Virus record (IMG/VR): IMGVR_UViG_2974791188_000001
Span: 5,603 to 69,602 of that record
From: a virus
Length of the DNA stretch: 64,000 bases
Strand: one strand, 5' to 3'
The notes under the pieces were generated by a model. The model searched no databases. It was not told the DNA's origin and was given only the letters and a program-made list of their open reading frames with translations. A program made the translations under genes and the position numbers. Every line of letters starts with the position of its first letter. Within the stretch, counting starts at the first letter, position 1. Positions 3,388-53,770 of the stretch are shown piece by piece.

Positions 3388-4394
3388 TGGCCGAATCCGA
3401 GGATCAGTCGCTATGGGAGTTGCTGGCTGCTTGGCTTATCGGTAAGCACACAGCTAAGCAGGAGGAGATCGCGGACACGGTCCGGAATGGTGTGATCCGC
3501 CAGTTCCGGTCCTTGGACTTCAACAACCTGGACCGCACTCAGGTTCCGTGGATTGAAGCCACTATGCCGTCCGTCCGTTGGGGCTATGAACGTTCCCAGC
3601 AGGCCACTTCTTCGTTCATTACTGACTATCGCAAGATGAGGCTACAGGAAGCCGACGACGAGGATGACGGGATTGATCCGGTCATCACTGCGCGGCAGGC
3701 CGACAGGATTGGTGCTGTCGACCGGTCTGTGGCCGCCCCGTTCAATGAGCAGAAGGCTGCTGTTCAACTGCTCACGACGGGACCGGCTCGGGTTAAGAAG
3801 GCTATGCCGACGCCTGAGTCGGACGCTATGGCTAAGGGCCTTAAGGGGGCTATTGGGGCTGCTATCCAGGTTGCGATGGATGGTGGCCGTGGTGTTGCTG
3901 AGGGTGAGACGCGCCGCGATCAGAAGGTGATTGCTTGGCAGCGGATCACGGACTCTAACCCTTGCTATTTCTGTGCTCTCTTGGCGGCTAATGGGCCGGT
4001 TGAGACGCGCACTATCTACCGCAACAACAAGGCTTGGAATGTGAATCGCCGAACTAAGAAGGCGTTCGTTCCTAATGCTGCGTTTGAGGCTACTGGCGAA
4101 CCTGACAATATCGCTAAGGCCCACGACCATTGCCGCTGCACTCTTGTGCCGGTGTATGGGAATTTCCATGTGTCTGAGGTAGCCAAGGAGGCTGCTGAGC
4201 TGTGGAAAGAGGCTTCTACGGGGGTTTCCCCTAAGGAGGCTTTGAACAACTATCGGCGCGCTTATGACGCGTTGCGTAGGTCTAGTCCGCTGGTGGATGA
4301 GCCGGTGGATACGGACGTTGTTCGCACCGCCCTTTTGGAGAGCGGTAATGCGGATCTTCGGGCTTGGGGTAATCGCCTTAAGCCTGCTTCTTGA
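3387..4394 (+). CDS. MuF-like minor capsid / head morphogenesis protein
   Basis: 335 aa; C-terminal HDHCRCTLVP matches the conserved H-x-N/H-CRC motif of the Phage_Mu_F (SPP1 gp7) family; ATGA overlap with portal. Confidence 0.72.
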   Translation: MAESEDQSLWELLAAWLIGKHTAKQEEIADTVRNGVIRQFRSLDFNNLDRTQVPWIEATMPSVRWGYERSQQATSSFITDYRKMRLQEADDEDDGIDPVITARQADRIGAVDRSVAAPFNEQKAAVQLLTTGPARVKKAMPTPESDAMAKGLKGAIGAAIQVAMDGGRGVAEGETRRDQKVIAWQRITDSNPCYFCALLAANGPVETRTIYRNNKAWNVNRRTKKAFVPNAAFEATGEPDNIAKAHDHCRCTLVPVYGNFHVSEVAKEAAELWKEASTGVSPKEALNNYRRAYDALRRSSPLVDEPVDTDVVRTALLESGNADLRAWGNRLKPAS

Positions 4395-8528: not shown

Positions 8529-8834
8529 ATGTCCACCCCCACTAACGAGGCTGGCCTTAAGGGCTTGTTCCACGAGCTTAAGCAAGAGATCGGTGTTCCT
8601 GCCGATATTCAGTTCACTGAGGACATTCTGCTTAAGTTCCCTACGCGGGAGCAGATGCGCGAGTATGCGTTGGCTTCGTCTGCGCAGGACAAGAACCGAG
8701 CGCTCTTCGGTGAGCACTACGACACCATCCAGGCGATGTTCGACAAAGAACCTCCCCAGTTGTATTTGGCGTTTGTGAACCGGATTGAGGAACTGTGGTT
8801 CGGTAAGGGTGCGAATAAGGTACCGGGAAAATAG
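8529..8834 (+). CDS. tail assembly chaperone (G-like, short form)
   Basis: 101 aa; ends ...VPGK* with slippery heptamer G GGA AAA directly before stop. Confidence 0.7.
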   Translation: MSTPTNEAGLKGLFHELKQEIGVPADIQFTEDILLKFPTREQMREYALASSAQDKNRALFGEHYDTIQAMFDKEPPQLYLAFVNRIEELWFGKGANKVPGK

Positions 8835-9314: not shown

Positions 9315-9704
9315 ATGACTACCGAATTTGTCGCTGACGTTGTCGCTAAGCCTGCAACTCTGATTGAAGAGCTGCGCGCTGAGAAGCCGGATCTGTTCCG
9401 CAAGGCCATCCAGTTCACTGATGAGATCGCTATTCCGATTCCTACCCAGGAGCAGGCTAAGGCGATTCAGGAGACTGAGGACCCGGAGGACATGGTTCGG
9501 ATCATGTTCGGCGACCAGTTTGACGCGGTCGAGGCTTATTGCGCGTCGCTCCCGGTTGGTGCCGGTGTTGTAGCGCTCGCAAAGCTGGTTGAGGCGATTC
9601 GGGCTTCGCTCCCGGATCTGGATTTGGTGTTCGCCGAGTACGGCATTGACAAGGGTGAGATTGAGGCGCAGTTCGCGGCCAAGCTCAAGACTAAGGCTGA
9701 ATGA
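9315..9704 (+). CDS. hypothetical protein (between chaperones and tape measure)
   Basis: 130 aa acidic ORF; ATG at 9315 after AAGGG; not part of the usual G/GT pair. Confidence 0.5.
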   Translation: MTTEFVADVVAKPATLIEELRAEKPDLFRKAIQFTDEIAIPIPTQEQAKAIQETEDPEDMVRIMFGDQFDAVEAYCASLPVGAGVVALAKLVEAIRASLPDLDLVFAEYGIDKGEIEAQFAAKLKTKAE

Positions 9705-9744: not shown

Positions 9745-12700
9745 ATGGCTGAGAAGTTCACGGTTGGCGATGCGGTCCTAAAGATTATCCCCTCGCTTGA
9801 CGAGTTTAAGAAGCGTCTGGATAGCGAGCTTAAGGCTTACCAGAAGTATTTCGATGTGACGATCCGTGCTGACATGGATCGGTTCAAGCGGGAGTTGCCT
9901 GCCGAGGTTAAGGCTGCTGCGGCTGCTGCTCGTTCTGACGTCAAGGTCGGGGCGGATGCTTCTGAGGCTCATGCGGAGATCGCCAAGGCTAAGGGTGCGA
10001 TTAAGGCTGCTGGCGGGGATATTCGTGTCGGCGCTGATACGGCGGAAGCTGTTGCTGAGATCGCGGCGGCTAAGGCGGCTATCGAGGCTGCTAGTGGCGA
10101 GATCAAGGTCGACGTTGATACGTCGGAGCTGCGCGAGGCATTGAAGCTGGCCCGCGATGAGGCGCGTATCCGTCGGGATATTGCGTTGGCCCGCGACATG
10201 GCTAACAAGGCTGCTGATGATGGCGAGAAGAAGGCTGCTCGCAAGATGGAGCAGAACCTTAAGCGTGAGCTTGATTCTCGTCAGTTGATTGTCGCGGCGT
10301 TGCGTGCGGCGAATGACATTGAGGGCATGTCGACTCAGGAGCGCGAGTCTGCCATGCGCAAGATTCGCGCGGCCGAGCAGGAGGTTGCCCGTAGTCGTGC
10401 GCGTGCCCGTGTGGACACGCAAATGTCGAACGAGGATCTACTTAACGCTCTCACGTCTGAGGCTGTACTGCGGGATCGGATTGCTCGTGCGCGTGCGGCG
10501 GGTGACGAGGCTAGCCTTGCTGCCGCCCGTGAGGAGCTGGGTATCCGGCAGGAGTTGGAGCGTGCGGAGCGTGCTCGTACTCGTGCTGCGGAGCCGGCCG
10601 ATAAGGAAGCTAAGGCTGCTCTCGAAGCTGAGAAGAAGTTGCAGGCTGAGCGCGCCAAGGCTGCCGGTAAGTGGGCTGAGGACCGCCGTAAGGAGCGGGA
10701 GCGCCAGGAGCGTGCACAGGCTAAGGAGGCGGCGAAGAAGGTCGACCTCGGTGCTGCTGAGGCCAAGATTGCGCAGTTGCAGGCTGAGATTGACACCCTC
10801 TCGGGGGACGTTGAGATCGGCGCTGACACCGAGCAGGCCAATATGCGTATTGCGCTGCTTGAGGAGAAGATCCGCCTGCTTCGTTCGGAGTTGCGGATCG
10901 GTGCTGACACTGTTGAGGCCCGCGCTAAGGTTGCGATCCTTGCGGCTCAGATCCGTGCGACGAAGGCCGACATTCGTGTTGGCGCTAACACGCGGGATGC
11001 TGCCGAAGAGGTGGACGATTTCGAGGCTAAGTTCCGGGTCGTCCAGTCGTTCCAGGGCTTCAATCTGTTCTCGCTGGGCAACATCACGTCGGCGATTGTC
11101 GGTATCGGCACTGTCATCGGCTTGCTTGGTGGCGTGGTCGCGGCTGCTGGTGCGGCTGCTACGTCTTTGGGTGCGATGGGCGGCGCTGTCGCTATCGGCT
11201 CTAGTGGCGTTTTCGGCGCGTTTTCTGAGCTTCGGGCACAGAACCAGCCGGGGGCTAAGGATTCGGGCCAGCAGGCCGCTGACGCTATGCGTGAGCAGCG
11301 TGAGGCCACTCAGCGTGTTGCTGATGCTCAGGAGAACTTGCGTAATGCGTCGTCGGATCTGGCTAACGATCAGAACCGGTTGCGTGATGCGACGAAGGAT
11401 GCGACCCGCGAGATTCGGGACCAGAAGCTCGCCTTGGAGGATGCGGCTCTAGCGCAGGAGGGTTCGGCTATTGCTGTGGCCCGCGCTAAGGAGCGGTACA
11501 CGGAGGTTGAGCGTCGGTACCGGCGTGGTGAGGCTTCGGCGCTGGACTTGCAGGAAGCGGATCTGAATGTCCGTACTTCGCAGTCGCGGTTGAAGGCGTC
11601 TCAGAACAACTTGGTGGATCAGCGGGAGACTACGCGCACCACGGTAGCTAACGGTGTGGCTAACAACCCTGGTGTTGTTGCGGCCCGTGAGCAAGTGGCC
11701 GATGGAGTCACTAAGGTGGCTAAGGCCCGCCGTGAGCTGGATGATTCGCGTGCGGATGCGTCTGCTGCGACGGCCGGTGCTGGTGTGGATCGGTTCACGC
11801 AGGCTATGTCTCGTCTGTCGCCGAATGCTCAGGACTTTGTCACTAAGGTGCGGTCTTTGGGTGGGGCTTGGACTGAGCTGCGCACGGCTACTCAGCAAGC
11901 GTTGTTTGCGGGCTTTGGTGACACGTTCACCGAGGTTGCCCGTAAGCAGATGCCTGAGTTGCAGAACGGCATGGTGTTGCTGGCTGGCACTGCTAACACG
12001 GTGTTGTCGGATTCGTTGCGTCGGGTGTCGGATACGTTCTCCGAGTTCACCGCTAATGGCACGTCGATGAAGTTCTTCGACAGCGTCGCGGCGTCGTTCT
12101 CTGGGTTCGCCCCGTTCGTCGAGTCGCTTGTGCGGGTGTTGACCGAACTGACTATCGGTATGGGTCCTCAGCTTGGCGTGTTCTTCGAGAGTCTGGGCCA
12201 GTTCCTAGAGGATCAGGCACCGATGTGGACCCGTATGGGTTCTCAGGTGCTTGCGGTTATGACGATGCTGATGCCTGTTATGGATCAGATGTTCAAGGCG
12301 CTTGAGCCTGTCTTCTCTGAGGGCTTCGAGCAGTTCGTGCGCATCTTCTCCGAGCTAGCTGTCGTGTTGCAGGATAACCAGGGTCCGCTTACCGAGTTTA
12401 CGTCTGCTCTTGGGTCGATGATCGTTAATCTGCTTAAGGCGGTTAACGAGCTGATGCCGATTTTCTTGGGTGCCTTGACGCTGTTTATGCAGGGTATCGC
12501 GGCGTTCGATCCTCAGGTTCTGGCGATCATTCTTGGCACGGTCGTTGCGCTTAGGTCTATTGTTGGCGGCTTTATCGCGGTGGGTAACACTGCGGGACGT
12601 ATGCTCGCGGCTGGTGAAAGCTTGGCTGAGGCATTCAAGTTCCTTAAGCTGTTGCCTGGTCGTCTTGCGGCTAGCGCTATTGGGATGAAGGTTGCTGCGG

Positions 12701-44701: not shown

Positions 44702-45045
44702 AACTGCGTGTTGAGTATGAAATTCCGGAGGATCAGCACGAGCGGGTGCGGTTGCAGGCGAAGCTTTCGGAGCTGGATTCGTTGCTGTCGTGGGTGGAGC
44801 CGTGGAAGCGGACTGTCAGCCTGATTGACGATGATCCGCTACCGGCGTGTGCGACTGAGAAGAAGTCGAGATACCAGCCGGTGTGCGGTAGCTGTCGTGA
44901 GCCGATCCAGGCGACCGAATGGTGGGGCTATCACCAACGCCTGTCCTCATACGTGCATCTCAACGCCCCCTGCTGGCACAACCTGTACGGGGAGGACGTC
45001 AGCGGCCACACGATGATGCTCGGTTCGGGGGGTGTGCCCGCGTGA
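44698..45045 (+). CDS. Cys-containing hypothetical protein
   Basis: 115 aa; TTGA overlap. Confidence 0.4.
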   Translation: MKLRVEYEIPEDQHERVRLQAKLSELDSLLSWVEPWKRTVSLIDDDPLPACATEKKSRYQPVCGSCREPIQATEWWGYHQRLSSYVHLNAPCWHNLYGEDVSGHTMMLGSGGVPA

Positions 45046-45971
45046 CCTTTCTAGTTGCTATGCGGGGGCTTCCCGCGTCAGGCAAGACCACCCGTGCCCG
45101 CGAGATCGCTAAGGAAACCGGGGCTGTCGTTGTCGGCCGCGACTTCGAGCGCTTCCAGATGTTCGGGGAATGGTGGACCGGTAAGAACGAGCATGAGAAT
45201 GCCGTGACGGTTGCGCTTAACGCTAAGGTTCGGGCCTTGCTTAAGGACGATCAATCCGTGATCGTTGATAACACCCACGTTCAGCTTCGCCTCCTCAAAG
45301 CCTGGGCCAAGATTGCGTCCGAATGTGGGGCAACTTTCCACGTCGAGGACGTGAAGACGCCGGTCGAAACCTGCCTGTTCCGCGACATGCAGCGCCAAGC
45401 CAACGGTGAGCGCTGGGTCGGCGAGGACGTCATTAACCGAATGGCTAAGCAAATCAACTGGGGGCAGGTTAAGCCCGTCCCGCCGATCGTGGTCAAGCCG
45501 CTCGAACCGTGGGAAACGCAATGGGATGCACCAGCCGCGATCATCGTCGACATTGACGGCACCCTGGCCCACATGCGGGAAGTCAACGGCACTGTTCGTA
45601 GCCCGTATGACTACAGCCGCGTTCACGAAGATGCCGTAGACCCCGCTATCCGCCAGATGGTCATTGACTATGACGCGATGGACGGAGACGTGATCGTCTG
45701 CTCTGGCCGAGACGATGACTGCCGGGACGTCACCGAAGCATGGCTGTGCGCCCACGGCGTGCCGTTCGATGAGCTGCTGATGCGGCCGAAGGATGCACGG
45801 GACGCTAACGGCAACAAGCTCCCGGACTGGATCGTTAAGTACAACCTGTTCAACGAACACATTCGCGGCCAATACGACGTGGAATATGTGCTCGATGACC
45901 GCAATCAGGTTGTGGACATGTGGCGGGCGCTCGGGCTTAAGTGCCTCCAAGTGCAGCCGGGAGACTTCTGA
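45042..45971 (+). CDS. polynucleotide 5'-kinase / 3'-phosphatase (Pnkp-like)
   Basis: N-terminal P-loop GLPASGKTT kinase; C-terminal HAD phosphatase IIVDIDGTL; GTGA overlap start. Confidence 0.75.
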   Translation: MTFLVAMRGLPASGKTTRAREIAKETGAVVVGRDFERFQMFGEWWTGKNEHENAVTVALNAKVRALLKDDQSVIVDNTHVQLRLLKAWAKIASECGATFHVEDVKTPVETCLFRDMQRQANGERWVGEDVINRMAKQINWGQVKPVPPIVVKPLEPWETQWDAPAAIIVDIDGTLAHMREVNGTVRSPYDYSRVHEDAVDPAIRQMVIDYDAMDGDVIVCSGRDDDCRDVTEAWLCAHGVPFDELLMRPKDARDANGNKLPDWIVKYNLFNEHIRGQYDVEYVLDDRNQVVDMWRALGLKCLQVQPGDF

Positions 45972-46246
45972 TGGCAGACGAACCGAACGTTATCGAACTC
46001 AAGTCGCCTAGCGAGAAGGTCATCACCCTTGTGCATCCCTTCCCGCCTGGTATGGCGGCGCAAGTCCTTGAAGAACTCAAGATCATGCGCGGCGGGTTCG
46101 ACGAAATGATTGGCGACCTCCAAAAGCGTGTCGATCAGATGCGCGCGGCGGGCCTTGTGGAGCCTGCCCCGGTCGCTTACCTCGATGATTACCGGGCACG
46201 TAAGGCCGCTAAGGCGAGTGCTCTTGAACCTAAGGATATTGGTTGA
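45971..46246 (+). CDS. hypothetical protein
   Basis: ATG in TGATG overlap. Confidence 0.45.
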   Translation: MADEPNVIELKSPSEKVITLVHPFPPGMAAQVLEELKIMRGGFDEMIGDLQKRVDQMRAAGLVEPAPVAYLDDYRARKAAKASALEPKDIG

Positions 46247-47541
46247 TTCTCGACGACCCTAAGAACAACAACTATGCCGTGACTGTTGTGCGTGTCCCGG
46301 CTACCTATGATCTGGACGGCTTGGACAACCTGGTGGGTGTCAAGGTGTTCAATTCGCAGATCCTCACTCAGCGTGACGGTGTGGAGCCGGGTGAGTTGCG
46401 CCTGTACTTCCCGGCCGAGGTTCAGATTTCGGCCGAGTATGCCGAGTACAACAGCCTGTACAGCAGCGGCGCGGGCCTTAACCGTGACCCGGAAGCGAAG
46501 GGCTACTTGGCTAAGAACCGACGCGTGCGGGCTATCAAGCTTCGCGGTCACCGTTCGGACGCACTCCTGATGCCGCTCGATTCGCTCAAGTGCTTCACTG
46601 GCCGCTACGACTACCTGCAAGAGGGCGACACGTTCGACGTGATCGAGGGCCACGAGGTTGTCCGCAAGTTCGAGCTACCCCGCAACGAACCGAAGGCCGG
46701 CGCAACTAAGCTCGCTAAGGTTCTTAAGCGGGTAGACAAGGCTCTGTTCCCTGAGCACCTGTCGACCGACAACTTTTTCCGCAACTCGCACCTGCTCGAC
46801 GCGAAGCGTGAGGTTGTCATCACCCAGAAGTTGCACGGCACGAGCATCCGCGTCGGCCGTGTCCCGGTGCGCCGCGAGAAGGGCCGCTGGGAACGTTTCC
46901 TCAACCGCCTGGGCGCTGCCACCCCGGACTTTGCTCACGAGCCGGTATTCGGCTCCCGCAAGGTCATCAAGGAGGCCGACAACAGCCGCCAGAACCACTA
47001 CTACGGTTCGGACATTTGGACCCGTAAGGGTGCTGAGATTGTCGCGGACATTCCGGACGGCTTCATTGTTTACGGCGAGCTGGTCGGTTGGACCGAGGAC
47101 GGTTCTCCGTTGCAGAAGGGCTACACCTACGACGTGCCTAAGGGCCAGTCGGAGCTGTACGTGTATCGGGTTGCACGTATCGACGTGAACCGGACGCTCA
47201 CGGATCTGCCTTGGGACGGTGTTAAGCAGTTCTGCAAGGAACGCGGCTGGAAGCATGTTCCGGAGATTGATCGGATCATTCCGGACTTCTGGGAAGCTTT
47301 GGTCGGCGAGACGATGGTCGAGTTTGTTGAGGACATGATGGACCGCCGCTACACCGAGGCTTACCACAGCCCCATCGACAAGCCGGTCGCGCTGTCGGAC
47401 CCCAAGACTGTCGATGAAGGCGTATGCATCCGTCAGGACGCAATCGCCCCGCTCATCCTCAAGGCTAAGGCCCCGAAGTTCTTGCAGCACGAAACCAAGC
47501 AGCTCGATAAGGGCGAAGTCGACTTGGAGAGCGCGGCCTAG
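46243..47541 (+). CDS. ATP-dependent RNA ligase (Rnl2-like, KxHG motif I)
   Basis: nucleotidyltransferase motif I ITQKLHGTS (cf. T4 Rnl2 KIHGTN); TTGA overlap start. Confidence 0.6.
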   Translation: MILDDPKNNNYAVTVVRVPATYDLDGLDNLVGVKVFNSQILTQRDGVEPGELRLYFPAEVQISAEYAEYNSLYSSGAGLNRDPEAKGYLAKNRRVRAIKLRGHRSDALLMPLDSLKCFTGRYDYLQEGDTFDVIEGHEVVRKFELPRNEPKAGATKLAKVLKRVDKALFPEHLSTDNFFRNSHLLDAKREVVITQKLHGTSIRVGRVPVRREKGRWERFLNRLGAATPDFAHEPVFGSRKVIKEADNSRQNHYYGSDIWTRKGAEIVADIPDGFIVYGELVGWTEDGSPLQKGYTYDVPKGQSELYVYRVARIDVNRTLTDLPWDGVKQFCKERGWKHVPEIDRIIPDFWEALVGETMVEFVEDMMDRRYTEAYHSPIDKPVALSDPKTVDEGVCIRQDAIAPLILKAKAPKFLQHETKQLDKGEVDLESAA

Positions 47542-47732
47542 TGCAGAACGGGCAATCGCAGTGTTACGTGGCGTTCCCCGGCCACCAATTTGACGTGGGA
47601 TCGTTGCGCCTCGCATACGACCAGCTCATTGGCATGGGAGTTCCACGTACCCGAAAGCTGACAATCGAATCCGTGCCCAAGGTGGGCGACGAGAAGTGCG
47701 ACGGGATCGCATTTGTGGAGGTAGTTCCGTGA
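47541..47732 (+). CDS. hypothetical small protein
   Basis: 63 aa. Confidence 0.35.
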   Translation: MQNGQSQCYVAFPGHQFDVGSLRLAYDQLIGMGVPRTRKLTIESVPKVGDEKCDGIAFVEVVP

Positions 47733-48568
47733 CCGTACATCTTTGGGCGCAAAGCCTCGACGACAAAGAGCTACACCCCGTCCACCCATTCCAGTTCCCT
47801 GGCGGCGAATGGCACATCCAACTCGCATTCGACGACCCCAAGCGGTCCTACCAGTGGATCGCAGTCGTCTACGGGGCCAGCGCCGAAGACCTCGTGAAGG
47901 CAAGCCTGCTGGCCGACATTGCGTTGGAACGCGAGGAGCACTCCGTACTGCTCATCCCCTACCTGCCTGCGGCACGGGCAGACCGGGGAGTCCCGCTGGG
48001 ATTGAGTGTGTACGGCGGGATCATTAACGTTGCCTGCTTCGGTGACGTCGTCACCCTGGACGCGCACAACCCGGAAGCTGCCTACCGGGAAGTCAACGGG
48101 CTGGTGAATCTGTCGGCTACCCCGCTGGTCACCGCGACCGTCCAGTACCAGGACACGTTCACCGGGGTCATCGCACCCGACAAGGGGGCCGCGGATCGGG
48201 CAGGAGACGTAGCCCGCGCGCTCGGCGTCGAGCTGGTCGTTGCAGACAAGGCCCGCGACTTCGACACCGGACGGATCACTGGTCTTAGCTGCCCGAAAGT
48301 CGACCCTAAGGGCAACTACCTGGTGGTCGATGACATTTGTGACGGCGGCGGCACCTTCATGGGACTGGCCGAAGCGACCGGCCTGCCGCAAGATCGACTG
48401 TCCCTGTGGGTCACGCACGGCATCTTCTCGGGTAACGCGGCCAACCTGCTCAAGCACTACTACAAGGCTGTTTACACCACCGACTCTCACCCCGGTTCGG
48501 GGCAGCTCGGCATGTGGACGGTCAAAACCCCCACGTGGGCATACATGTTCAGAAAGGTCCAAGCATGA
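47729..48568 (+). CDS. ribose-phosphate pyrophosphokinase (Prs) homolog; candidate Adps of NARP1
   Basis: PRPP-binding loop LVVDDICDGGGT and Prs-like topology; GTGA overlap start. Confidence 0.72.
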   Translation: MTVHLWAQSLDDKELHPVHPFQFPGGEWHIQLAFDDPKRSYQWIAVVYGASAEDLVKASLLADIALEREEHSVLLIPYLPAARADRGVPLGLSVYGGIINVACFGDVVTLDAHNPEAAYREVNGLVNLSATPLVTATVQYQDTFTGVIAPDKGAADRAGDVARALGVELVVADKARDFDTGRITGLSCPKVDPKGNYLVVDDICDGGGTFMGLAEATGLPQDRLSLWVTHGIFSGNAANLLKHYYKAVYTTDSHPGSGQLGMWTVKTPTWAYMFRKVQA

Positions 48569-50043
48569 CCAAGTTCGCACCCATCGCTGCACTGATGCAG
48601 ACCGATGCTTACAAGCTTGACCACCGCAACCAGTACCAGTTGGCCGGCCGCGTTAGCCGTGTCTACTCGAACTACACCAACCGTAAGAGCCGCATCGACG
48701 GGGTCGACCACGTTGTGCACTTCGGGTTGCAGGCGTTCATCCAGAAGAACCTTGTGGAAGCGTTCGAGCCGTTCTTCGCGGCCGACGAGGATCTGGTGTG
48801 CGACCTGTACGAGGAGCGGGTTACGCAGATCCTTGGCCCGAACACGATTGGTTCGGATCACATTCGGGCCTTGCACCGTAAGGGCTACCTGCCGCTTCGG
48901 TTCTCTGCTCTGCCGGAAGGTACGCCGGTTCCGATCCGGGTTCCGTCGTTCGTCGTGGAGAACACCGAGGACGAGTTCTTTTGGCTGACCAACTATGTGG
49001 AGACGGCGCTTAGCGCTGGCGTGTGGCAGGCGTCTACGTCTGCGACGATTGCCCGCGAGTACCGGAAGATCCTCGACCAGGCCGCCGAGGCTACCGGTGG
49101 TGTCCGTGAGGCTGTCGACTTCCAGTGCCACGACTTCTCTTACCGGGGCATGTCGTCTCAGGAGTCGGCGCAGCTTAGCGGCGCTGCCCACCTGCTGTCG
49201 TTCAGCGGCACCGATTCGCTGGTGGCCTTGGACTGGATTGACCGCTACTACGGCGGCGAGTACGTCGCGGGATCAGTTCCAGCCACCGAACACTCGGTGA
49301 TGTGCACCGGCATTGAAGCCGTGGGCGAACAGGAGTTGTTCTCTAAGCTGCTGGACCTGTACCCGACTGGCATCTTCTCGGTGGTGTCTGACACGTTCGA
49401 CCTGTGGACGGTCCTGACCGAGTACCTGCCAGCACTTAAGGACAAGATCCTGGCGCGCGACGGCAAGCTGGTGATCCGCCCGGACTCTGGCGACCCGGAG
49501 AAGATCATTTGCGGAGACCCGGACGCCGAGACGGGGACCGCCGAATGGTTTGGTGTCGTCCGGCTGCTTCGGATGGCGTTTGGTTGCACCTGGAATGAGG
49601 CTGGCTTCCGCGAGTTGAACTCGCATGTAGGGGTCATCTACGGCGACTCCATCACCCTCGAACGCGCTAAGAGCATCACCGCGCGACTCGAATCTATGGG
49701 CTACGCATCCACCAACGTCGTGTTTGGTGTCGGCTCATACACCTACCAGCACAACACCCGCGACACGTTCGGCTCCGCGATGAAAGCCACATGGGCTGAG
49801 GTCGACGGTAAGGGCGTCAACCTGCTTAAGGACCCCATCACTGATGACGGCACGAAGAAGTCGGCTACGGGACGTCTGGCAGTCGTTAACAGCGAGTACG
49901 GCGGAGACCTCAAGCTCATCGAACGGGCAACCCCCGAAGCTGAGCAGTGGAGCCTCCTCAAGCCCATCTGGGAAAACGGACAGTTCGTACAGCGAGTTAC
50001 CTTCGCCGATGTACGGGCAACCCTGGCTAACGCGGGGGCTTGA
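48565..50043 (+). CDS. nicotinamide phosphoribosyltransferase (NAMPT/NadV) homolog; candidate Namat of NARP1
   Basis: TDAYKLDHRNQY...FSYRGMSS...SGTDS NAMPT family signatures; ATGA overlap start. Confidence 0.78.
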   Translation: MTKFAPIAALMQTDAYKLDHRNQYQLAGRVSRVYSNYTNRKSRIDGVDHVVHFGLQAFIQKNLVEAFEPFFAADEDLVCDLYEERVTQILGPNTIGSDHIRALHRKGYLPLRFSALPEGTPVPIRVPSFVVENTEDEFFWLTNYVETALSAGVWQASTSATIAREYRKILDQAAEATGGVREAVDFQCHDFSYRGMSSQESAQLSGAAHLLSFSGTDSLVALDWIDRYYGGEYVAGSVPATEHSVMCTGIEAVGEQELFSKLLDLYPTGIFSVVSDTFDLWTVLTEYLPALKDKILARDGKLVIRPDSGDPEKIICGDPDAETGTAEWFGVVRLLRMAFGCTWNEAGFRELNSHVGVIYGDSITLERAKSITARLESMGYASTNVVFGVGSYTYQHNTRDTFGSAMKATWAEVDGKGVNLLKDPITDDGTKKSATGRLAVVNSEYGGDLKLIERATPEAEQWSLLKPIWENGQFVQRVTFADVRATLANAGA

Positions 50044-50044
50044 G

Positions 50045-50347
50045 TTGGCTGACGGTAGCTGGTGGGCCTTGGAGAATCCGGGCCGATACAGGATCGAATC
50101 ACTCAAGTGCGACGTTGAGGTCGACTGGCCTGCGTACTCATTCGGCTCTCTCGAATCGCCACGGCCCCGGAAGTATCTGACACTAATCGAACTGACTAAC
50201 GGCCGAACCACCACGGTGCTCAAGGCGTACACCGACCCGGACACGGACGAGAGCATTGTGGCGGCTTACGGCAAGGGCCAGCTTAAGGAGCTAAGCGTCT
50301 ACCTCGATGAGAAGCCCGACGCTTTCTCGTGGCGGAAGATCCACTAG
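50045..50347 (+). CDS. hypothetical protein
   Basis: TTG 2 nt after NAMPT stop; ORF open from 49844. Confidence 0.4.
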   Translation: MADGSWWALENPGRYRIESLKCDVEVDWPAYSFGSLESPRPRKYLTLIELTNGRTTTVLKAYTDPDTDESIVAAYGKGQLKELSVYLDEKPDAFSWRKIH

Positions 50348-51227
50348 TTGGGTTACGGAGCTGCCGCACAATACCCCGGCGACACCCGCGTCTGGGTATG
50401 GGACTACACAGGCCCCAAGGGACAACGGGGCCATTGGGAGGACAAAACTGAACACTCGGAAACTAGCTCTCGACAACCTCATAATGCTGGGGGTAGCAGG
50501 CTCCCAGCTCTACGGGACACAGCTTGACGACGGCGACAATGACCAAATGGGGGTGTGCATCGAGCCTCCAAGTCACGTCATCGGGCTAAGCCAATTCGAG
50601 CAATGGCAGTACCACAGTGCAGGCAACGGCGTCAGGTCCGGAAGTGAAGACCTCGACGTCACCGTGTACTCGCTACGGAAGTGGACCCGGCTAGCAGAAC
50701 AGGGCAACCCGACTGTCCTGCTGCTCGGGTTCACCCCCGATGAACTGGTCCTTGAGGACTCGTTCTGGGGTGCGCAACTCCGCTCCAATATGGACATGTT
50801 CATGTCCCGGCAGGCCGGATCGCGGTTCCTCGGCTACCTCGACTCCCAGCGCAAGCAGATGCTAGGGCTTACCGGCCGTAAGCATTCCAACCGCCCGGAG
50901 CTGGTTGAGCAGTACGGCTACGACACCAAGTTTGCCTACCACGCCGTCAGGCTCGGTATGCAGGGTGTGGAGTACCTGACCACCGGGCACATGGAACTGC
51001 CCATGAAGCAGGACTACCGGGACTACCTCATCGACATTCGGCAAGGCCGGGAGTCGAAAGAAGACGTGGTGACGGTCATCAACCTGTACATCGACCTACT
51101 GCGCAAGCTCAAGCATTCGCCGGATCTGCCGCCACGCGCTAACCGGGTGGAGATCGACGCCTGGCTTGAGGTCATGCACGAAACGTTCTGGACGTCGCAG
51201 GGGCGGACACTCGCCAATGTGGCTTGA
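50307..51227 (+). CDS. Pol-beta superfamily nucleotidyltransferase
   Basis: GVAGSQLYGTQLDDGDNDQMGV fits hG[GS]-x10-DxD; helical C-terminal domain. Confidence 0.5.
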   Translation: MRSPTLSRGGRSTSWVTELPHNTPATPASGYGTTQAPRDNGAIGRTKLNTRKLALDNLIMLGVAGSQLYGTQLDDGDNDQMGVCIEPPSHVIGLSQFEQWQYHSAGNGVRSGSEDLDVTVYSLRKWTRLAEQGNPTVLLLGFTPDELVLEDSFWGAQLRSNMDMFMSRQAGSRFLGYLDSQRKQMLGLTGRKHSNRPELVEQYGYDTKFAYHAVRLGMQGVEYLTTGHMELPMKQDYRDYLIDIRQGRESKEDVVTVINLYIDLLRKLKHSPDLPPRANRVEIDAWLEVMHETFWTSQGRTLANVA

Positions 51228-51537: not shown

Positions 51538-51609
51538 TCCCGTATAGCTTAATTGGCAGAGCGTCCGGTTGTTACCCGGATGGTCCAGGTTCGATTCCTG
51601 GTGCGGGAG
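51538..51609 (+). tRNA. tRNA-Asn (GTT)
   Basis: manual cloverleaf: acceptor tcccgta/tgcggga, D-arm gctt-aattggca-gagc, anticodon loop ttGTTac, T-arm ccagg-ttcgatt-cctgg. Confidence 0.75.
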
Positions 51610-51725
51610 CTTAGAGTAGATTGTTTCGGCTCCGTTTCGTAGAACACTCAGACGTCAATCCAAACGGGCAGCACTCGAAATCACTTACCCATGTGGGTGT
51701 CACTGGTTCATTGTTCGGGTGATCT

Positions 51726-51796
51726 GGGGCGATAGTTTAGTGGTAGAACGGCGGTCTCCAAAGCCGCTCGCCGGGGTTCGATTCCTCGTCGCCTCG
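51726..51796 (+). tRNA. tRNA-Trp (CCA)
   Basis: acceptor ggggcga/tcgcctc, anticodon loop ctCCAaa, T-arm cgggg-ttcgatt-cctcg. Confidence 0.75.
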
Positions 51797-51860
51797 CCGC
51801 GCTTGGCTGTGCGCGTAAACAGTCCGCCGCTGCCGACCGGCGTAAAACGGTACGGCTTCC

Positions 51861-51933
51861 GCCTTAGAAACCGAATTGGCTAGGTGCCTGACTTCCAATC
51901 AGGATTTTGCGGGTTCAAGTCCCGTCTAAGGCT
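51861..51933 (+). tRNA. tRNA-Gly (TCC)
   Basis: perfect 7-bp acceptor gccttag/ctaaggc, anticodon loop ctTCCaa, T-arm gcggg-ttcaagt-cccgt; short D-stem. Confidence 0.7.
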
Positions 51934-52036
51934 CAATGGGACGCCAGAGATAAACGCTGGTGCGGTAGAAGCTGACCCGATTCAGAAACCCGCCGATTCC
52001 CGATCACCGATGGCTGCCGGTATATGCAGTTTCTAA

Positions 52037-52112
52037 CTCTCCGTAGCTCAGTTGGTCTTAGAGCAGGGCACTCTTAATGCTCGGGTCGCAGGTTCGAGTC
52101 CTGCCGGGGAGA
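52037..52112 (+). tRNA. tRNA-Lys (CTT)
   Basis: acceptor ctctccg/cggggag, D-arm gctc-agttggtctta-gagc, anticodon loop ctCTTaa, T-arm gcagg-ttcgagt-cctgc. Confidence 0.75.
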
Positions 52113-52150
52113 CGTAGTGGGAGACGGGGGTTCGATTCCCTCCATGCGCG
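52113..52150 (+). pseudogene. tRNA-like 3' fragment (T-arm plus acceptor-like) without a matching 5' half
   Basis: ggggg-ttcgatt-ccctc T-arm-like element 38 nt after tRNA-Lys; no complementary acceptor 5' strand found. Confidence 0.3.
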
Positions 52151-52358
52151 CTGTAGCTTAATGGTAGAGCACCCACGCTTTGCAAATATGTTCCGGATGG
52201 CCCGCTCAAGGGATACGGCGCATAGAGCTAAGAGGTTGTAAGCCCGTAAAGCCCAACCCTTAGTCTCCGCAGGTTCGCCACCGAACTACCTGCGTTATCA
52301 AAACCCACGTGAATTGAGGCCGAAGGGCCGGTGGGCCTTAGTTGGAAGGGTGGACCCA

Positions 52359-52441
52359 GGGCTTGTGGCGGAATTGGCAGACGCGCCGGATTCAAAATCC
52401 GGTACTCATTGAGTGTGTGGGTTCGAGTCCCACTAAGCCCA
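52359..52441 (+). tRNA. tRNA-Leu (CAA)
   Basis: acceptor gggcttg/taagccc, anticodon loop ttCAAaa, long variable arm, T-arm gtggg-ttcgagt-cccac. Confidence 0.75.
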
Positions 52442-52442
52442 C

Positions 52443-52655
52443 ATGGAAAACACTGACATTCACAACCGGTTCGCCTTCCACCCGGCCACCACGGCTGAAA
52501 AGAAGGGTGCCCACGGCAGTATCCGAGAGGCAATGCTGTCGACCGCGCTCTACGTGAACAACAACGTTCCGGACGGCCGCGAAAAGTCTCTGGCTATCAC
52601 CGCCCTGGAAGAGGCTATGTTCTGGGCCAACGCTGCCATCGCACGAGCAGTGTAG
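52443..52655 (+). CDS. hypothetical protein
   Basis: 70 aa, starts 2 nt after tRNA-Leu. Confidence 0.45.
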   Translation: MENTDIHNRFAFHPATTAEKKGAHGSIREAMLSTALYVNNNVPDGREKSLAITALEEAMFWANAAIARAV

Positions 52656-52882
52656 TGGCAATCGTCCTGGGGGTCGGTGACGTCGACAAGATCACCGATC
52701 CCGGCCACCTAGAAGCGCTCAGACGCCTCGAAATGATCGCCGCCTACACAGTGGACGACCACGAGATGGTCGACCTGAACGCTATGGCACTTAGCGGTGC
52801 GTGGGCCACTCCCGCGTACCAACCATCCGAAATTGGCTCCAAGGCTGGAAAGAAGCTTCGGGTCATGTATTCCAAGAAGTAG
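52655..52882 (+). CDS. hypothetical protein
   Basis: 75 aa; GTG in TAGTG overlap. Confidence 0.4.
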   Translation: MAIVLGVGDVDKITDPGHLEALRRLEMIAAYTVDDHEMVDLNAMALSGAWATPAYQPSEIGSKAGKKLRVMYSKK

Positions 52883-52891
52883 GAGAATCCT

Positions 52892-53263
52892 TTGGGTTTC
52901 CGTGATCTGTTTACTCCCCGTACTAAGCGTCAGAAGAAGGCTAAGGGTAAGGGTGAGCAGTTGGGCCGCGCGATCGGCGAACTGACTGTGAGTGCGCAGG
53001 GCTTTACCGAGTCCGTCATCACTCCCCGCGTGGGTGGCAAGCTCCCCATGTCGAACGGCTCCCCGTTGGAGTCTCGTGGCCCGGTTCGGCCGGCTCCTAA
53101 GCCCCGTAGCTACGAAAGCCCCAGCTACTCGGGCTACGACCATTCGCCCGCGATCGCTGCTGCTGCGGTGTCGTCTAGCTACTCGTCGCCTTCGTACAGT
53201 TCGTCGTGTGATTCCAGCTCGTCTAGCTCGTTCTCGTCTGACTGTGGCGGCGGCGGATTCTGA
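52892..53263 (+). CDS. hypothetical protein with Ser-rich low-complexity C-terminus
   Basis: SSYSSPSYSSSCDSSSSSSFSSDCGGGGF. Confidence 0.4.
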   Translation: MGFRDLFTPRTKRQKKAKGKGEQLGRAIGELTVSAQGFTESVITPRVGGKLPMSNGSPLESRGPVRPAPKPRSYESPSYSGYDHSPAIAAAAVSSSYSSPSYSSSCDSSSSSSFSSDCGGGGF

Positions 53264-53436
53264 TGCTTGAGGCCATCATTGCGGGCTTCTTCACCACCCT
53301 ACTAGTGGGGGTATTCGTCGGATTCGTCTACTGGATGCTCAGTCCGCCGTCCTGGGTCGGCGGTGGCGGCACCTACAAGGGGGGGTTTGATCTGAGTTCG
53401 CCGCAAGGCGTCGCCCTGCTGGTGGCCGCGACATGA
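53263..53436 (+). CDS. tiny membrane protein (57 aa), followed by a 33-aa TM micro-ORF 53433..53534
   Basis: hydrophobic helix; ATGA coupling between the two micro-ORFs. Confidence 0.3.
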   Translation: MLEAIIAGFFTTLLVGVFVGFVYWMLSPPSWVGGGGTYKGGFDLSSPQGVALLVAAT

Positions 53437-53576
53437 TAACCACCGTCCTTAGCGGGATCGGCGCTATCGCGCTCCTGTATGTGCTCGGCTACATACTCGT
53501 CGGGGCCTGGTGCCTTTGGAGCCTAGGCCGATGATCTAACGGGTTTGGTCACGTTCCCTCATCTAAACGTGGCTCT

Positions 53577-53658
53577 ACTAGGTGATGCCCCAATGGCGGG
53601 GCAGCGGGCTGTAACCCCGTGGCGTTTTACGCAGGCAGGTTCGATCCCTGTCACCTAG
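53577..53658 (+). tRNA. tRNA-Tyr (GTA)
   Basis: perfect acceptor ctaggtg/cacctag, anticodon stem gcggg/cccgt loop ctGTAac, long variable arm, T-arm gcagg-ttcgatc-cctgt. Confidence 0.7.
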
Positions 53659-53725
53659 ACGTTTCACCTTCTTCTACGGGAGACCAACCTAACTCTGCTC
53701 CGTCAGGGGGAAGGTGACCTACCAC

Positions 53726-53770
53726 GCGCCACGGCCCATCAAACACTGGTGGTCCGTGGCGCTCTTTTTG
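53726..53770 (+). terminator. rho-independent terminator after tRNA cluster
   Basis: GCGCCACGG...CCGTGGCGC stem then TCTTTTTG. Confidence 0.6.

What the first reader, a model, noticed from the sequence alone, without database searches (positions are those of the whole stretch)
51538..53658. tRNA array (Asn-GTT, Trp-CCA, Gly-TCC, Lys-CTT, Leu-CAA, Tyr-GTA) enriched for known anticodon-nuclease targets
Seen: six hand-folded cloverleafs with canonical T-loops and matching discriminator bases. Established: tRNA-Lys is the PrrC target, and the GUN-anticodon tRNAs Asn and Tyr are targets of colicin E5-type nucleases. Inference: the set may supply nuclease-resistant replacements rather than only codon-usage compensation, which fits the adjacent RNA repair genes.
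Basis: partly seen in the sequence, partly recalled or inferred. Interest (0 to 1): 0.55.

Follow-up and report, generated by a model that had tools for sequence, protein, structure and literature searches.

The report
Phage tRNA array matching codon demand
The six tRNA genes are real but already annotated in the published Gordonia phage Octobien14, and five of them decode exactly the codon families the phage uses most in excess of its host genus, so ordinary translational supply explains them better than nuclease evasion, which remains possible.

Summary
Observation confirmed. ARAGORN finds all six tRNAs at the stated coordinates, and Rfam confirms five. The window is Gordonia phage Octobien14 (NC_060134.1), where all six are already annotated.

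- **For it:** the array lies in an anti-defence and RNA-repair island (Pnkp, RNA ligase, RlaP, NARP1 Adps+Namat, and an Acb2/Tad1-like gene inside the array). tRNA-Tyr has C38 where three Gordonia species have A38. tRNA-Asn has an unusual U32/C38 loop.
- **Against it:**
  - Among 45 decoding families, the five with the largest excess use in the phage over a host-genus proxy are AAG, TTG, AAY, TAY and TGG. These are exactly five of the six tRNAs (P about 5e-6).
  - The tRNA-Trp loop is identical to the host genus.
  - PrrC targets Lys-UUU, not the Lys-CUU found here.
  - The idea is already published (van den Berg 2023).
  - Only Gly-TCC is unexplained by demand.

The unannotated Lys-Leu spacer holds a circularly permuted tRNA-like module. 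It resembles the tRNA-like domain of YrlA Y RNA, although this phage has no Ro gene.

Host tRNAs for Asn, Lys, Gly and Leu could not be retrieved.

The parts
51538..51610 (+). tRNA-Asn(GTT). Anticodon stem-loop is TCCGG-TTGTTAC-CCGGA, with U32 and C38 where E. coli and mycobacteriophage C1 Asn tRNAs have C32 and A38.
   Evidence: ARAGORN; Rfam 66.4 bits; annotated as gene 95. The same loop occurs in the Yvonnetastic tRNA-Asn.
51726..51798 (+). tRNA-Trp(CCA). Loop CTCCAAA is identical to three Gordonia species; only position 39 differs (G instead of A).
51861..51934 (+). tRNA-Gly(TCC), loop CTTCCAA. Present in all seven Deeyouvirinae examined. It is the one tRNA not explained by codon demand.
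52037..52113 (+). tRNA-Lys(CTT), loop CTCTTAA. A core tRNA of the subfamily.
52117..52178 (+). Unannotated, circularly permuted tRNA-like module. Order of elements: GTGGG, AGAC, T-arm GGGGG-TTCGATT-CCCTC, an 11-nt linker, TA, D-arm GCTT-AATGGTA-GAGC, A, CCCAC. The two ends pair as GTGGG/CCCAC. It resembles the tRNA-like domain of YrlA Y RNA.
   Evidence: Sequence. Rfam YrlA gives 29.5 bits (E 0.0013) and 26.4 bits (E 8e-4, model positions 24-84 only). The gathering score is 69, so this is not a curated-level match.
52179..52358 (+). Remainder of the conserved non-coding Lys-Leu spacer. It includes the hairpin GCAGGTTCG..CGAACTACCTGC (52269-52293), which is also found after tRNA-Asp in Gordonia phage Yvonnetastic.
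   Evidence: 97-99.6% identical in Kudefre, Sephiroth and Syleon. Yvonnetastic match. The MFE fold is not better than shuffles (z = -0.27).
52359..52442 (+). tRNA-Leu(CAA), loop TTCAAAA. A core tRNA of the subfamily.
   Evidence: TTG is used 2.4-fold more than in the host proxy, 3.2-fold in late genes.
52443..52655 (+). gp100, 70 aa, an Acb2/Tad1-like putative immune-signal sponge. Its ATG follows tRNA-Leu with a 1-nt gap after the discriminator.
   Evidence: Pfam PF24729, E 3.2e-20, 72.5 bits against a cutoff of 27. Sequence.
52655..53534 (+). Four small ORFs (gp101-gp104) of unknown function between tRNA-Leu and tRNA-Tyr.
   Evidence: Annotation. No significant Pfam or PHROG function.
53578..53660 (+). 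tRNA-Tyr(GTA) with a long variable arm, C1-G72, and loop CTGTAAC (C38). Three Gordonia species have YTGTAAA and G1-C72.
   Evidence: C38 variants also occur in mycobacteriophage C1 tRNA-Tyr.
53726..53770 (+). Terminator-like hairpin GCGCCACGG..CCGTGGCGC followed by TCTTTTTG. It probably ends the transcription unit that carries the array.
   Evidence: Read from the sequence. The consensus scan missed it because the loop is long.
45042..45971 (+). Polynucleotide kinase-phosphatase (Pnkp).
   Evidence: Pfam AAA_33 plus HAD_PNKP, E 1.6e-47; phrog_505.
46243..47541 (+). ATP-dependent RNA ligase.
   Evidence: Pfam PF09414, E 2.7e-13; phrog_968, E 2e-106.
47729..50043 (+). PRPS-like gene plus Nampt-like gene, read as the NARP1 pair Adps + Namat (NAD+ reconstitution).
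   Evidence: gp91's best PDB match is Namat 9W5X/9W5W at E 2.6e-137, against 5e-62 for canonical Nampt. gp90 gives only weak PRPS matches.
50307..51227 (+). RlaP-family Pol-beta nucleotidyltransferase (the RNA ligase-associated family).
   Evidence: Pfam PF10127, E 9e-29. Biochemistry of the family.

Best explanation
The six genes are functional elongator tRNAs of the temperate Gordonia phage Octobien14. They are transcribed with the early/middle right-arm genes and matured by host RNase P, 3'-end processing enzymes and the CCA-adding enzyme.

Their main role is translational supply. They top up the decoding capacity of a 68% G+C host for a 58% G+C phage whose proteins are richer in Lys, Trp, Tyr and Asn, and whose late genes use TTG heavily.

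**Shown**
- The genes exist and are conserved.
- Five of the six match the five most over-demanded decoding families.

**Inferred**
- They are expressed, charged and rate-relevant.

The array sits inside an island of counter-defence genes (tRNA end-healing, nucleotide re-addition and sealing; NAD+ reconstitution; an Acb2/Tad1-like sponge). A secondary role as a back-up tRNA pool when host tRNAs are cleaved is therefore plausible, especially for the loop-variant Tyr and Asn, but it is not demonstrated.
For: - **Real, annotated genes:**
- **Codon counts:** 111 annotated CDS in the window (19,929 codons) against 39 genes (10,998 codons) from Gordonia sp. SGD-V-85 and G. defluvii.
- **Amino-acid level:** W, K, Y and N are four of the five most over-used amino acids, at 1.41-1.62x. 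The hypergeometric P for four of the top five is 0.014.
- **Decoding-family level (45 families):** the excess-use ranking starts AAG, TTG, AAY, TAY, TGG, which correspond to Lys-CTT, Leu-CAA, Asn-GTT, Tyr-GTA and Trp-CCA. P = 4.9e-6.
- **TTG:** 26.2 per 1000 in late genes against 8.3 in the host proxy.
- **tRNA-Trp loop:** identical to the host genus, so no escape substitution is needed to explain it.
- **Gly-TCC, Lys-CTT and Leu-CAA loops:** read, they have the usual C/U32-U33 and A37-A38 pattern.
Against: - Gly-TCC, which is present in every relative, is not explained. GGA+GGG are used less than in the host proxy (ratio 0.86).
- The host proxy is two non-host Gordonia species and only 39 genes, partly orthologous between the two loci.
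- The ranking uses absolute excess. By ratio, rare families such as CTA (3.2) and GTA (3.0) rank higher.
- Codon usage could have adapted to the tRNAs rather than the reverse.
- AAG, AAC, TAC and TGG are not rare in the host.
- The array is interleaved with counter-defence genes.
- Tyr (C38) and Asn (U32/C38) have non-canonical loops. The Tyr variant is shared with an unannotated tRNA-Tyr-like gene in Yvonnetastic and with C1 mycobacteriophages. That recurrence is the pattern the evasion hypothesis predicts.
Confidence: 0.6

Rival explanations
1. Counter-defence replacement tRNAs. Host anticodon nucleases deplete specific tRNAs on infection. The phage copies carry loop changes that make them poor substrates, and Pnkp, RlaP and the RNA ligase repair what is cut.
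For: - The tRNA healing, re-addition and sealing genes are adjacent (RlaP biochemistry).
- NARP1 and an Acb2/Tad1-like gene flank or interrupt the array.
- tRNA-Tyr has C38 where three Gordonia species have A38.
- tRNA-Asn has a U32/C38 loop that is shared with Yvonnetastic.
- C38 Tyr variants recur in mycobacteriophages.
- Precedents are published.
- Relatives carry other GUN tRNAs, namely His and Tyr.
Against: - The tRNA-Trp loop is identical to the host genus, and Rabbitrun's also matches at position 39.
- The Lys isoacceptor is CUU, not the PrrC target UUU.
- No Gordonia tRNase is known or was testable.
- Five of the six tRNAs are fully predicted by demand alone.
- The eLife authors argued for evasion partly because codon use did not differ between phage and host. 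Here it does.
- Host Asn, Lys, Gly and Leu tRNAs were not obtained.
Confidence: 0.25
2. tRNA-dependent lysogeny. The tyrosine integrase inserts the prophage into an essential host tRNA gene without rebuilding it, and a phage tRNA of the same isotype complements the loss.
For: - Octobien14 is temperate, with a tyrosine integrase and a repressor.
- The mechanism is documented in Gordonia phages, and attB sites at Lys-CTT, Leu-CAA and Gly-TCC genes are known.
- No tRNA 3' half is visible in the attP region, so any common core would be short.
- tRNA-Asn is found only in the integrase-bearing Octobienviruses.
Against: - Nevilleviruses show no homologue of this integrase, yet they keep Gly, Lys and Leu.
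- The integrase is not in the family studied in that paper. The nearest homologues are in Corynebacterium and Rhodococcus phages.
- Two Rhodococcus loci with a 53% identical integrase show only a tRNA-Arg 3-7 kb away.
- This mechanism could explain one tRNA at most.
Confidence: 0.06
3. Selfish or relic cassettes. The tRNAs are mobile modules that are exchanged among actinophages and have little effect on fitness.
For: - There are cassette-like swaps at one slot: Trp in Octobien14 and Kudefre, an odd 'ccag' tRNA in Sephiroth and His in Syleon, all between invariant spacers.
- The Nevillevirus gap holds a degenerate tRNA-like sequence.
Against: - The genes are near-invariant among phages that are about 90% identical elsewhere.
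- The match to demand is precise.
Confidence: 0.05

Closest known systems
tRNA arrays of cluster C1 mycobacteriophages, as analysed by van den Berg et al. 2023 (eLife 12:e85183)
   Same: - An actinobacteriophage tRNA cluster.
- Phage tRNA-Tyr with C1-G72 and, in many members, a C38 loop.
- The same proposed role, evasion of host anticodon nucleases.
   Different: - Six tRNAs instead of about 33.
- A temperate siphovirus of Gordonia.
- Phage and host codon use differ strongly here, and that difference predicts five of the six tRNAs. The C1 study found no such difference.
Phage T4 tRNA cluster with Pnkp and Rnl1 countering PrrC
   Same: - tRNA genes sit together with a polynucleotide kinase-phosphatase, an RNA ligase and an RlaP-family protein (T4 NrdC.11).
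- From my own knowledge, the T4 cluster also holds stable non-tRNA RNAs.
   Different: - In T4 the damaged host tRNA-Lys(UUU) is repaired, not replaced.
- The tRNA here is Lys(CUU).
- The ligase is a PF09414-type enzyme with an N-terminal OB domain and has no solved close relative.
Phage tRNAs that overcome retron and other tRNA-cleaving defences (Nat Commun 2024, PMC11555353; PARIS AriB, PMC12409363)
   Same: Single phage tRNAs, including Tyr and Lys, can rescue infection when host tRNAs are cleaved.
   Different: Those cases are experimentally shown in E. coli phages. Nothing comparable is known for Gordonia, and no defence system was identified here.
Bacterial Ro (Rsr) with YrlA Y RNA in RNA-repair loci (Chen et al. 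2014, RNA 20:1715)
   Same: - The T-arm, short 'acceptor' linker and D-arm are in permuted order and closed by a stem that stands in for the anticodon stem.
- The Nevillevirus relatives have a Ro gene with a YrlA-like hit just upstream, placed between RlaP and the tRNAs.
   Different: - Octobien14 has no Ro gene.
- Only the tRNA-like domain matches (model positions 24-84, 26 bits against a gathering score of 69).
- There is no 5' strand available for a Ro-binding helix, because tRNA-Lys ends 4 nt upstream.
- The 'acceptor' is reduced to 11 nt.
tRNA-dependent lysogeny (Guerrero-Bustamante and Hatfull 2024, mBio)
   Same: A temperate actinophage with a tyrosine integrase and its own tRNA genes, infecting the same host species.
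   Different: - A different integrase family.
- Six tRNAs rather than one cognate tRNA.
- The core tRNAs are also present in relatives that lack this integrase.

Membership tests
Bacterial-type elongator tRNA genes | Cloverleaf found by a dedicated tRNA finder, with a 7-nt anticodon loop. | tested here: met
   ARAGORN finds 6 of 6.
Bacterial-type elongator tRNA genes | Score at or above the Rfam RF00005 gathering threshold. | tested here: inconclusive
   Five score 58-66 bits against a threshold of 29. Tyr is below threshold for RF00005 and scores 34 bits with the tRNA-Sec model.
Bacterial-type elongator tRNA genes | Discriminator base and T-loop consistent with the isotype. | tested here: met
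   Read: G73 for Asn and Trp, U73 for Gly, A73 for Lys, Leu and Tyr. However, Tyr and Lys have C1-G72.
Codon/demand-compensating phage tRNAs | Cognate codon families are used more by the phage than by the host. | tested here: met
   Five of six tRNAs occupy ranks 1-5 of 45 families (P 4.9e-6). Gly-TCC fails, with a ratio of 0.86. The host is represented by two other Gordonia species.
Nuclease-insensitive replacement tRNAs (van den Berg 2023) | The anticodon loop differs from the host tRNA of the same anticodon at or near a cleavage or recognition site. | tested here: inconclusive
   Tyr differs (A38 to C). The Trp loop is identical. Host tRNAs for Asn, Lys, Gly and Leu were not obtained.
Nuclease-insensitive replacement tRNAs (van den Berg 2023) | The host encodes a tRNase that cleaves that isoacceptor. 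| not testable with these tools
Nuclease-insensitive replacement tRNAs (van den Berg 2023) | The tRNA set is not accounted for by codon usage. | tested here: not met
T4-type 5'-phosphate tRNA repair set | A bifunctional kinase-phosphatase plus an ATP-dependent RNA ligase, with an RlaP nucleotidyltransferase. | tested here: met
   Pfam AAA_33 plus HAD_PNKP, PF09414 and PF10127; PHROGs. Enzyme activities were not tested.
YrlA / bacterial Y RNA (RF02553) | A tRNA-like domain: T-arm, acceptor-like element and D-arm in that order, closed by a stem. | tested here: inconclusive
   The architecture is present and the 5-bp closing stem is perfect. Rfam gives only 26-29 bits against a gathering score of 69. 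Other phage YrlA-like RNAs also score only 32-44 bits.
YrlA / bacterial Y RNA (RF02553) | A Ro-binding helix formed by the 5' and 3' ends. | tested here: not met
   Model positions 1-23 and 85-114 match only by borrowing the 3' end of tRNA-Lys. They are lost when that end is excluded.
YrlA / bacterial Y RNA (RF02553) | Encoded next to a Ro/TROVE gene. | tested here: not met
   tblastn with the Trax Ro protein gives no hit in Octobien14, Kudefre, Sephiroth or Syleon. The feature is met in Trax, Neville and Rabbitrun.
tRNA-dependent lysogeny | attB overlaps a host tRNA gene of the same isotype and shares only a short core, so the tRNA is not rebuilt on integration. | not testable with these tools
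   The attP region shows arm-type repeats and no tRNA half. No Gordonia prophage junction was found.
NARP1 NAD+ reconstitution | An adjacent PRPS-like Adps gene and a Nampt-like Namat gene. | tested here: met
   gp91 matches Namat 9W5X at E 2.6e-137, more than twice the bit score of canonical Nampt. gp90 is PRPS-like. Activity was not tested.

The most novel reading that the evidence does not exclude
The region 45-54 kb is one integrated counter-measure against host attacks on tRNA. In this reading, the loop-variant tRNAs (Tyr C38, Asn U32/C38) are poor substrates for Gordonia anticodon nucleases. Pnkp, RlaP and the ligase mend what is cut. The Ro-less, anticodon-less tRNA-like module in the Lys-Leu spacer acts as a decoy or sponge for tRNA-binding nucleases or modification enzymes, which would be a Y-RNA-derived domain working without Ro.
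Probability: 0.1. Interest if true: 0.65.

Novelty: already known. Interest (0 to 1): 0.27.

Why it matters
As stated, the finding adds little. The genes are in GenBank, and the nuclease-evasion idea has been in print since 2023.

What is useful is the contrast with the mycobacteriophage study. In this Gordonia phage, codon and amino-acid demand predicts the tRNA set almost perfectly. Phage tRNA arrays should therefore not be read as counter-defence by default, even when they lie among counter-defence genes.

The residue that demand does not explain gives concrete, cheap experimental targets in a genetically tractable SEA-PHAGES system:
- tRNA-Gly(TCC);
- the C38 tRNA-Tyr lineage;
- the conserved tRNA-like spacer RNA.

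Tried and rejected
**Host tRNAs**
- A blastn of tRNA-Lys against all phages, looking for attP cores that carry host tRNA halves, gave 1221 records of ordinary phage tRNAs and nothing usable.
It returned only two Rhodococcus loci at 53% identity, with no clear attB, and no further scan was allowed.
- Typing the actinobacterial L33 sequence from memory led to the rpmG-secE locus of three Gordonia species. That gave host-genus tRNA-Tyr and tRNA-Trp only.
- I know of no comparably short, conserved anchor protein for Asn, Lys-CTT, Gly-TCC or Leu-CAA.

**Spacer RNA at 52114-52358**
- A permuted tRNA gene was rejected. The 11-nt linker cannot hold two acceptor strands.
- A group I intron was rejected. 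There is no Rfam hit at E up to 5 or 10.
- tmRNA was rejected. ARAGORN finds none, and Rfam matches only the T-arm.
- A false positive from two adjacent tRNAs was rejected. There is no second anticodon arm or T-arm, and the two ends are perfectly complementary.
- MFE folding gave z = -0.27, so it offers no support.
- The few substitutions in Syleon are not compensatory.
- My first impression that this spacer is unusually conserved was wrong. The whole Asn-to-Leu block, other spacers included, is near-invariant.

**Other searches that gave nothing**
- The promoter and terminator consensus scan found nothing.
- PADLOC gave no hits.
- PDB sequence searches for the ligase and for RlaP gave no hits.
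- The Gordonia bronchialis Ro homologue lies in a prophage-like region. It says nothing about a chromosomal Rsr in Gordonia.
Full report
**What is there**

- Asn-GTT 51538-51610
- Trp-CCA 51726-51798
- Gly-TCC 51861-51934
- Lys-CTT 52037-52113
- Leu-CAA 52359-52442
- Tyr-GTA 53578-53660

Rfam's tRNA model gives 58-66 bits for the first five, against a gathering score of 29. Tyr reaches only 34 bits, and only with the tRNA-Sec model. It has a long variable arm and a C1-G72 pair.

The window is 100% identical to Gordonia phage Octobien14, NC_060134.1 (host Gordonia terrae 3612, subfamily Deeyouvirinae). All six tRNAs are annotated there as genes 95-99 and 105.

**Relatives**

The other Octobienviruses keep the same layout, with cassette-like changes at one slot.

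| Phage | Slot occupied by Trp in Octobien14 |
|---|---|
| Kudefre | Trp |
| Sephiroth | an odd tRNA annotated with a 'ccag' loop |
| Syleon | His-GTG |

The Nevilleviruses differ more.

| Phage | tRNA set |
|---|---|
| Trax, Neville | His, Tyr, Gly, Lys, Leu, Gln, Tyr |
| Rabbitrun | Gly, Trp, Lys, Gln, Leu, Gln |

Only Gly-TCC, Lys-CTT and Leu-CAA are common to all seven phages. Among the four Octobienviruses, the block from upstream of Asn to the end of Leu is almost invariant, spacers included. Coding DNA nearby is about 90% identical.

**Neighbourhood**

Upstream of the array lie the following genes:
- a kinase-phosphatase Pnkp (45042-45971), a PF09414 RNA ligase (46243-47541) and an RlaP nucleotidyltransferase (50307-51227), all;
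- between them, a PRPS-like gene and a Nampt-like gene.

RlaP enzymes add one or two nucleotides to the 3'-OH of damaged RNA. [quoted passage not shown]

The best solved relative of the Nampt-like protein is the phage enzyme Namat (9W5X/9W5W), at E 2.6e-137 against 5e-62 for true Nampt. The pair is therefore most likely the NAD+ reconstitution pathway NARP1.

Inside the array, gp100 starts one base after the tRNA-Leu discriminator. It matches the Acb2/Tad1 hairpin domain at E 3e-20.

The region is better described as a counter-defence island.

**Test 1: codon demand**

I counted codons in the 111 annotated CDS of the window (19,929 codons). I compared them with 39 genes (10,998 codons) from two Gordonia genomes, reached through the conserved rpmG-secE locus. 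Those loci are 67.5-68.3% G+C; the phage is about 58%.

The phage over-uses Trp (1.62x), Lys (1.56x), Cys, Tyr (1.47x) and Asn (1.41x). Four of the top five amino acids therefore have a phage tRNA (P = 0.014).

I then grouped the 61 sense codons into 45 decoding families (NNY, NNA, NNG). The families with the largest excess use per 1000 codons are, in order:

| Rank | Family | Excess per 1000 |
|---|---|---|
| 1 | AAG | +16.3 |
| 2 | TTG | +11.4 |
| 3 | AAY | +9.5 |
| 4 | TAY | +9.4 |
| 5 | TGG | +7.6 |

These are exactly five of the six phage tRNAs (hypergeometric P = 4.9e-6). TTG reaches 26 per 1000 in the late genes, against 8 in the host proxy.

Gly-TCC is the exception. GGA+GGG are used less than in the host proxy (ratio 0.86).

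Four caveats apply:
- The proxy is not G. terrae itself, and it is small.
- The ranking uses absolute excess. By ratio, rare families such as CTA and GTA rank higher.
- Causality could run the other way.
- The most over-used single codons are NNT codons, which share GNN tRNAs with NNC.

**Test 2: anticodon loops against the host**

The same loci gave tRNA-Tyr and tRNA-Trp from G. hankookensis, Gordonia sp. SGD-V-85 and G. defluvii. Within the genus they are virtually identical, so they are fair stand-ins for G. terrae.

| tRNA | Host genus | Phage | Difference |
|---|---|---|---|
| Tyr | GCGGA-YTGTAAA-TCCGT, G1-C72 | GCGGG-CTGTAAC-CCCGT, C1-G72 | A38 to C; acceptor pair reversed |
| Trp | GCGGT-CTCCAAA-ACCGC | GCGGT-CTCCAAA-GCCGC | Loop identical; only position 39 differs |

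Rabbitrun's Trp matches the host at position 39 too.

C38 variants of tRNA-Tyr also occur in C1 mycobacteriophages. An unannotated tRNA-Tyr-like gene in Yvonnetastic has the same variant, so C38 marks an actinophage tRNA-Tyr lineage.

tRNA-Asn has the loop TTGTTAC (U32, C38). Yvonnetastic has the same loop, whereas the C1 phage Asn tRNAs have CTGTTAA.

Lys, Gly and Leu have ordinary loops. Host genes for Asn, Lys, Gly and Leu could not be retrieved.

**The 'enrichment' argument**

- PrrC cuts tRNA-Lys(UUU) 5' of the wobble base. The phage gene is Lys(CUU).
- In T4 the answer to PrrC is repair, not replacement.
- Colicin E5 is an enterobacterial toxin.
- The eLife study counted ten anticodon-nuclease-targeted tRNAs among those that mycobacteriophages encode. 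Lys, Asn, Tyr, His, Asp, Arg and fMet are targets elsewhere. I infer that three 'targets' among six tRNAs is about what chance gives.
- The hypothesis is that of van den Berg et al. 2023. Experimental precedents exist in E. coli phages.

**Rival: tRNA-dependent lysogeny**

Octobien14 is temperate, with a tyrosine integrase and a repressor. The mechanism is known in G. terrae phages.

However, this integrase occurs only in the four Octobienviruses and belongs to another family. The core tRNAs persist in Nevilleviruses that lack it. The attP region shows arm-type repeats but no tRNA half. The only cellular homologues found were two Rhodococcus loci, which were uninformative.

At most this could concern one tRNA. 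tRNA-Asn is the only one restricted to the integrase-bearing genus.

**Verdict on function**

Translational supply is the best-supported explanation for five of the six tRNAs (confidence about 0.6). A counter-defence role is not excluded, and the genomic context and the Tyr and Asn loops favour it (about 0.25). The two readings are not mutually exclusive.

**The unannotated spacer**

The 245-nt Lys-Leu gap begins with a circularly permuted tRNA-like module. Its elements, in order, are:
- GTGGG;
- AGAC;
- a T-arm, GGGGG-TTCGATT-CCCTC;
- an 11-nt linker;
- TA;
- a D-arm, GCTT-AATGGTA-GAGC;
- A;
- CCCAC, which pairs with the initial GTGGG.

Rfam matches it to YrlA at 29.5 bits. With tRNA-Lys excluded, the score is 26.4 bits (E 8e-4), covering only the tRNA-like domain, model positions 24-84. 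That is far below the gathering score of 69. The Ro-binding helix is absent, and Octobien14 has no Ro gene.

The Nevillevirus relatives do encode Ro, with a 44-bit YrlA hit just upstream, placed between RlaP and the tRNAs. Similar short-linker YrlA-like RNAs lie in or beside tRNA arrays of unrelated viral contigs, at 32-44 bits.

Chen et al. 2014 described YrlA in phages, but next to Ro. I treat this as a probable Ro-less derivative of the YrlA tRNA-like domain. Its function is unknown and its expression is untested.

Syleon carries a second spacer RNA between Gly and Lys. It is homologous to the Trax Lys-Leu gap.

Noticed in passing
window 52117-52178 (within the unannotated spacer 52114-52358): A circularly permuted tRNA-like module: T-arm, 11-nt linker and D-arm, closed by GTGGG/CCCAC. 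It matches only the tRNA-like domain of Rfam YrlA (26-29 bits, gathering score 69). This phage has no Ro/TROVE gene.
   Followed up: partly
L003 (Gordonia phage Trax) 5821-5937 and 6068-7666: The Nevillevirus relatives encode a Ro-like protein. A 44-bit YrlA hit lies just upstream, under tiny annotated 'hypothetical protein' ORFs (gp92, gp93), which are therefore probably not genes.
   Followed up: partly
window 47729-50043: The genes annotated as ribose-phosphate pyrophosphokinase and nicotinamide phosphoribosyltransferase look like the NARP1 pair Adps + Namat. The best PDB match is Namat 9W5X at E 2.6e-137, against 5e-62 for true Nampt.
   Followed up: yes
window 52443-52655: gp100, annotated as hypothetical, matches the Acb2/Tad1 hairpin domain (PF24729, E 3e-20). 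Its ATG follows the tRNA-Leu discriminator after a single base, so tRNA 3' processing would leave a nearly leaderless mRNA. Syleon has GTG at the same place.
   Followed up: partly
window 8825-8834: The tail assembly chaperone gene ends in CCG GGA AAA TAG, which gives the slippery heptamer G GGA AAA. The P-site codon GGA is read by tRNA-Gly(UCC). That is the one phage tRNA not explained by codon demand, and it is present in all relatives.
   Followed up: no
L005 (Syleon) about 3507-3818; L003 (Trax) 9447-9641: A second conserved non-coding module (…GGCGGCATTGCAGTGCC…GACGGACTAWGCCCGRTGAAGGCCGTCTAACCCC…CAAGGTRCGGGCCGGGGACAATTT…) lies between Gly and Lys in Syleon and between Lys and Leu in the Nevilleviruses. 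A scan of the Trax locus at E up to 0.1 gave no Rfam match there.
   Followed up: no
L003 (Trax) about 9375-9447: An unannotated tRNA-like sequence with a 7-bp stem and a UAUU tetraloop in place of an anticodon arm. The alignment suggests it corresponds in position to Rabbitrun's tRNA-Gln(CTG), so it may be a degenerate tRNA.
   Followed up: partly
window 52269-52293; L008 (Yvonnetastic) 2501-2537: The hairpin GCAGGTTCGCCACCGAACTACCTGC recurs directly after a tRNA in an unrelated Gordonia phage. It may be a processing signal. Yvonnetastic also has several unannotated class II tRNA-like genes and isolated T-arms at L008 1490-1530, 2070-2110 and 2655-2995.
   Followed up: no
window 53726-53770: A terminator-like hairpin with a T tract lies just after tRNA-Tyr. 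The consensus scan missed it because its loop is long.
   Followed up: no
L004 (Sephiroth) 3280-3354: In the Trp slot, Sephiroth carries a tRNA that the depositors annotated as tRNA-?(Trp|Leu)(ccag), with an 8-nt anticodon loop. It could be a frameshift-suppressor-like tRNA or a pseudo-tRNA.
   Followed up: no
L038 (Gordonia bronchialis CP082859.1) 10001-11608: The nearest Gordonia cellular homologue of the phage Ro protein sits among small phage-like ORFs (HAD_PNKP, HNH, Acb5-like). It is a prophage gene rather than a chromosomal rsr.
   Followed up: partly
window 53578-53660 and 52037-52113: The phage tRNA-Tyr and tRNA-Lys have C1-G72, whereas Gordonia tRNA-Tyr has G1-C72. C1 mycobacteriophage tRNA-Tyr genes share the C1-G72 pair, which raises the question of how the host TyrRS charges them.
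   Followed up: no
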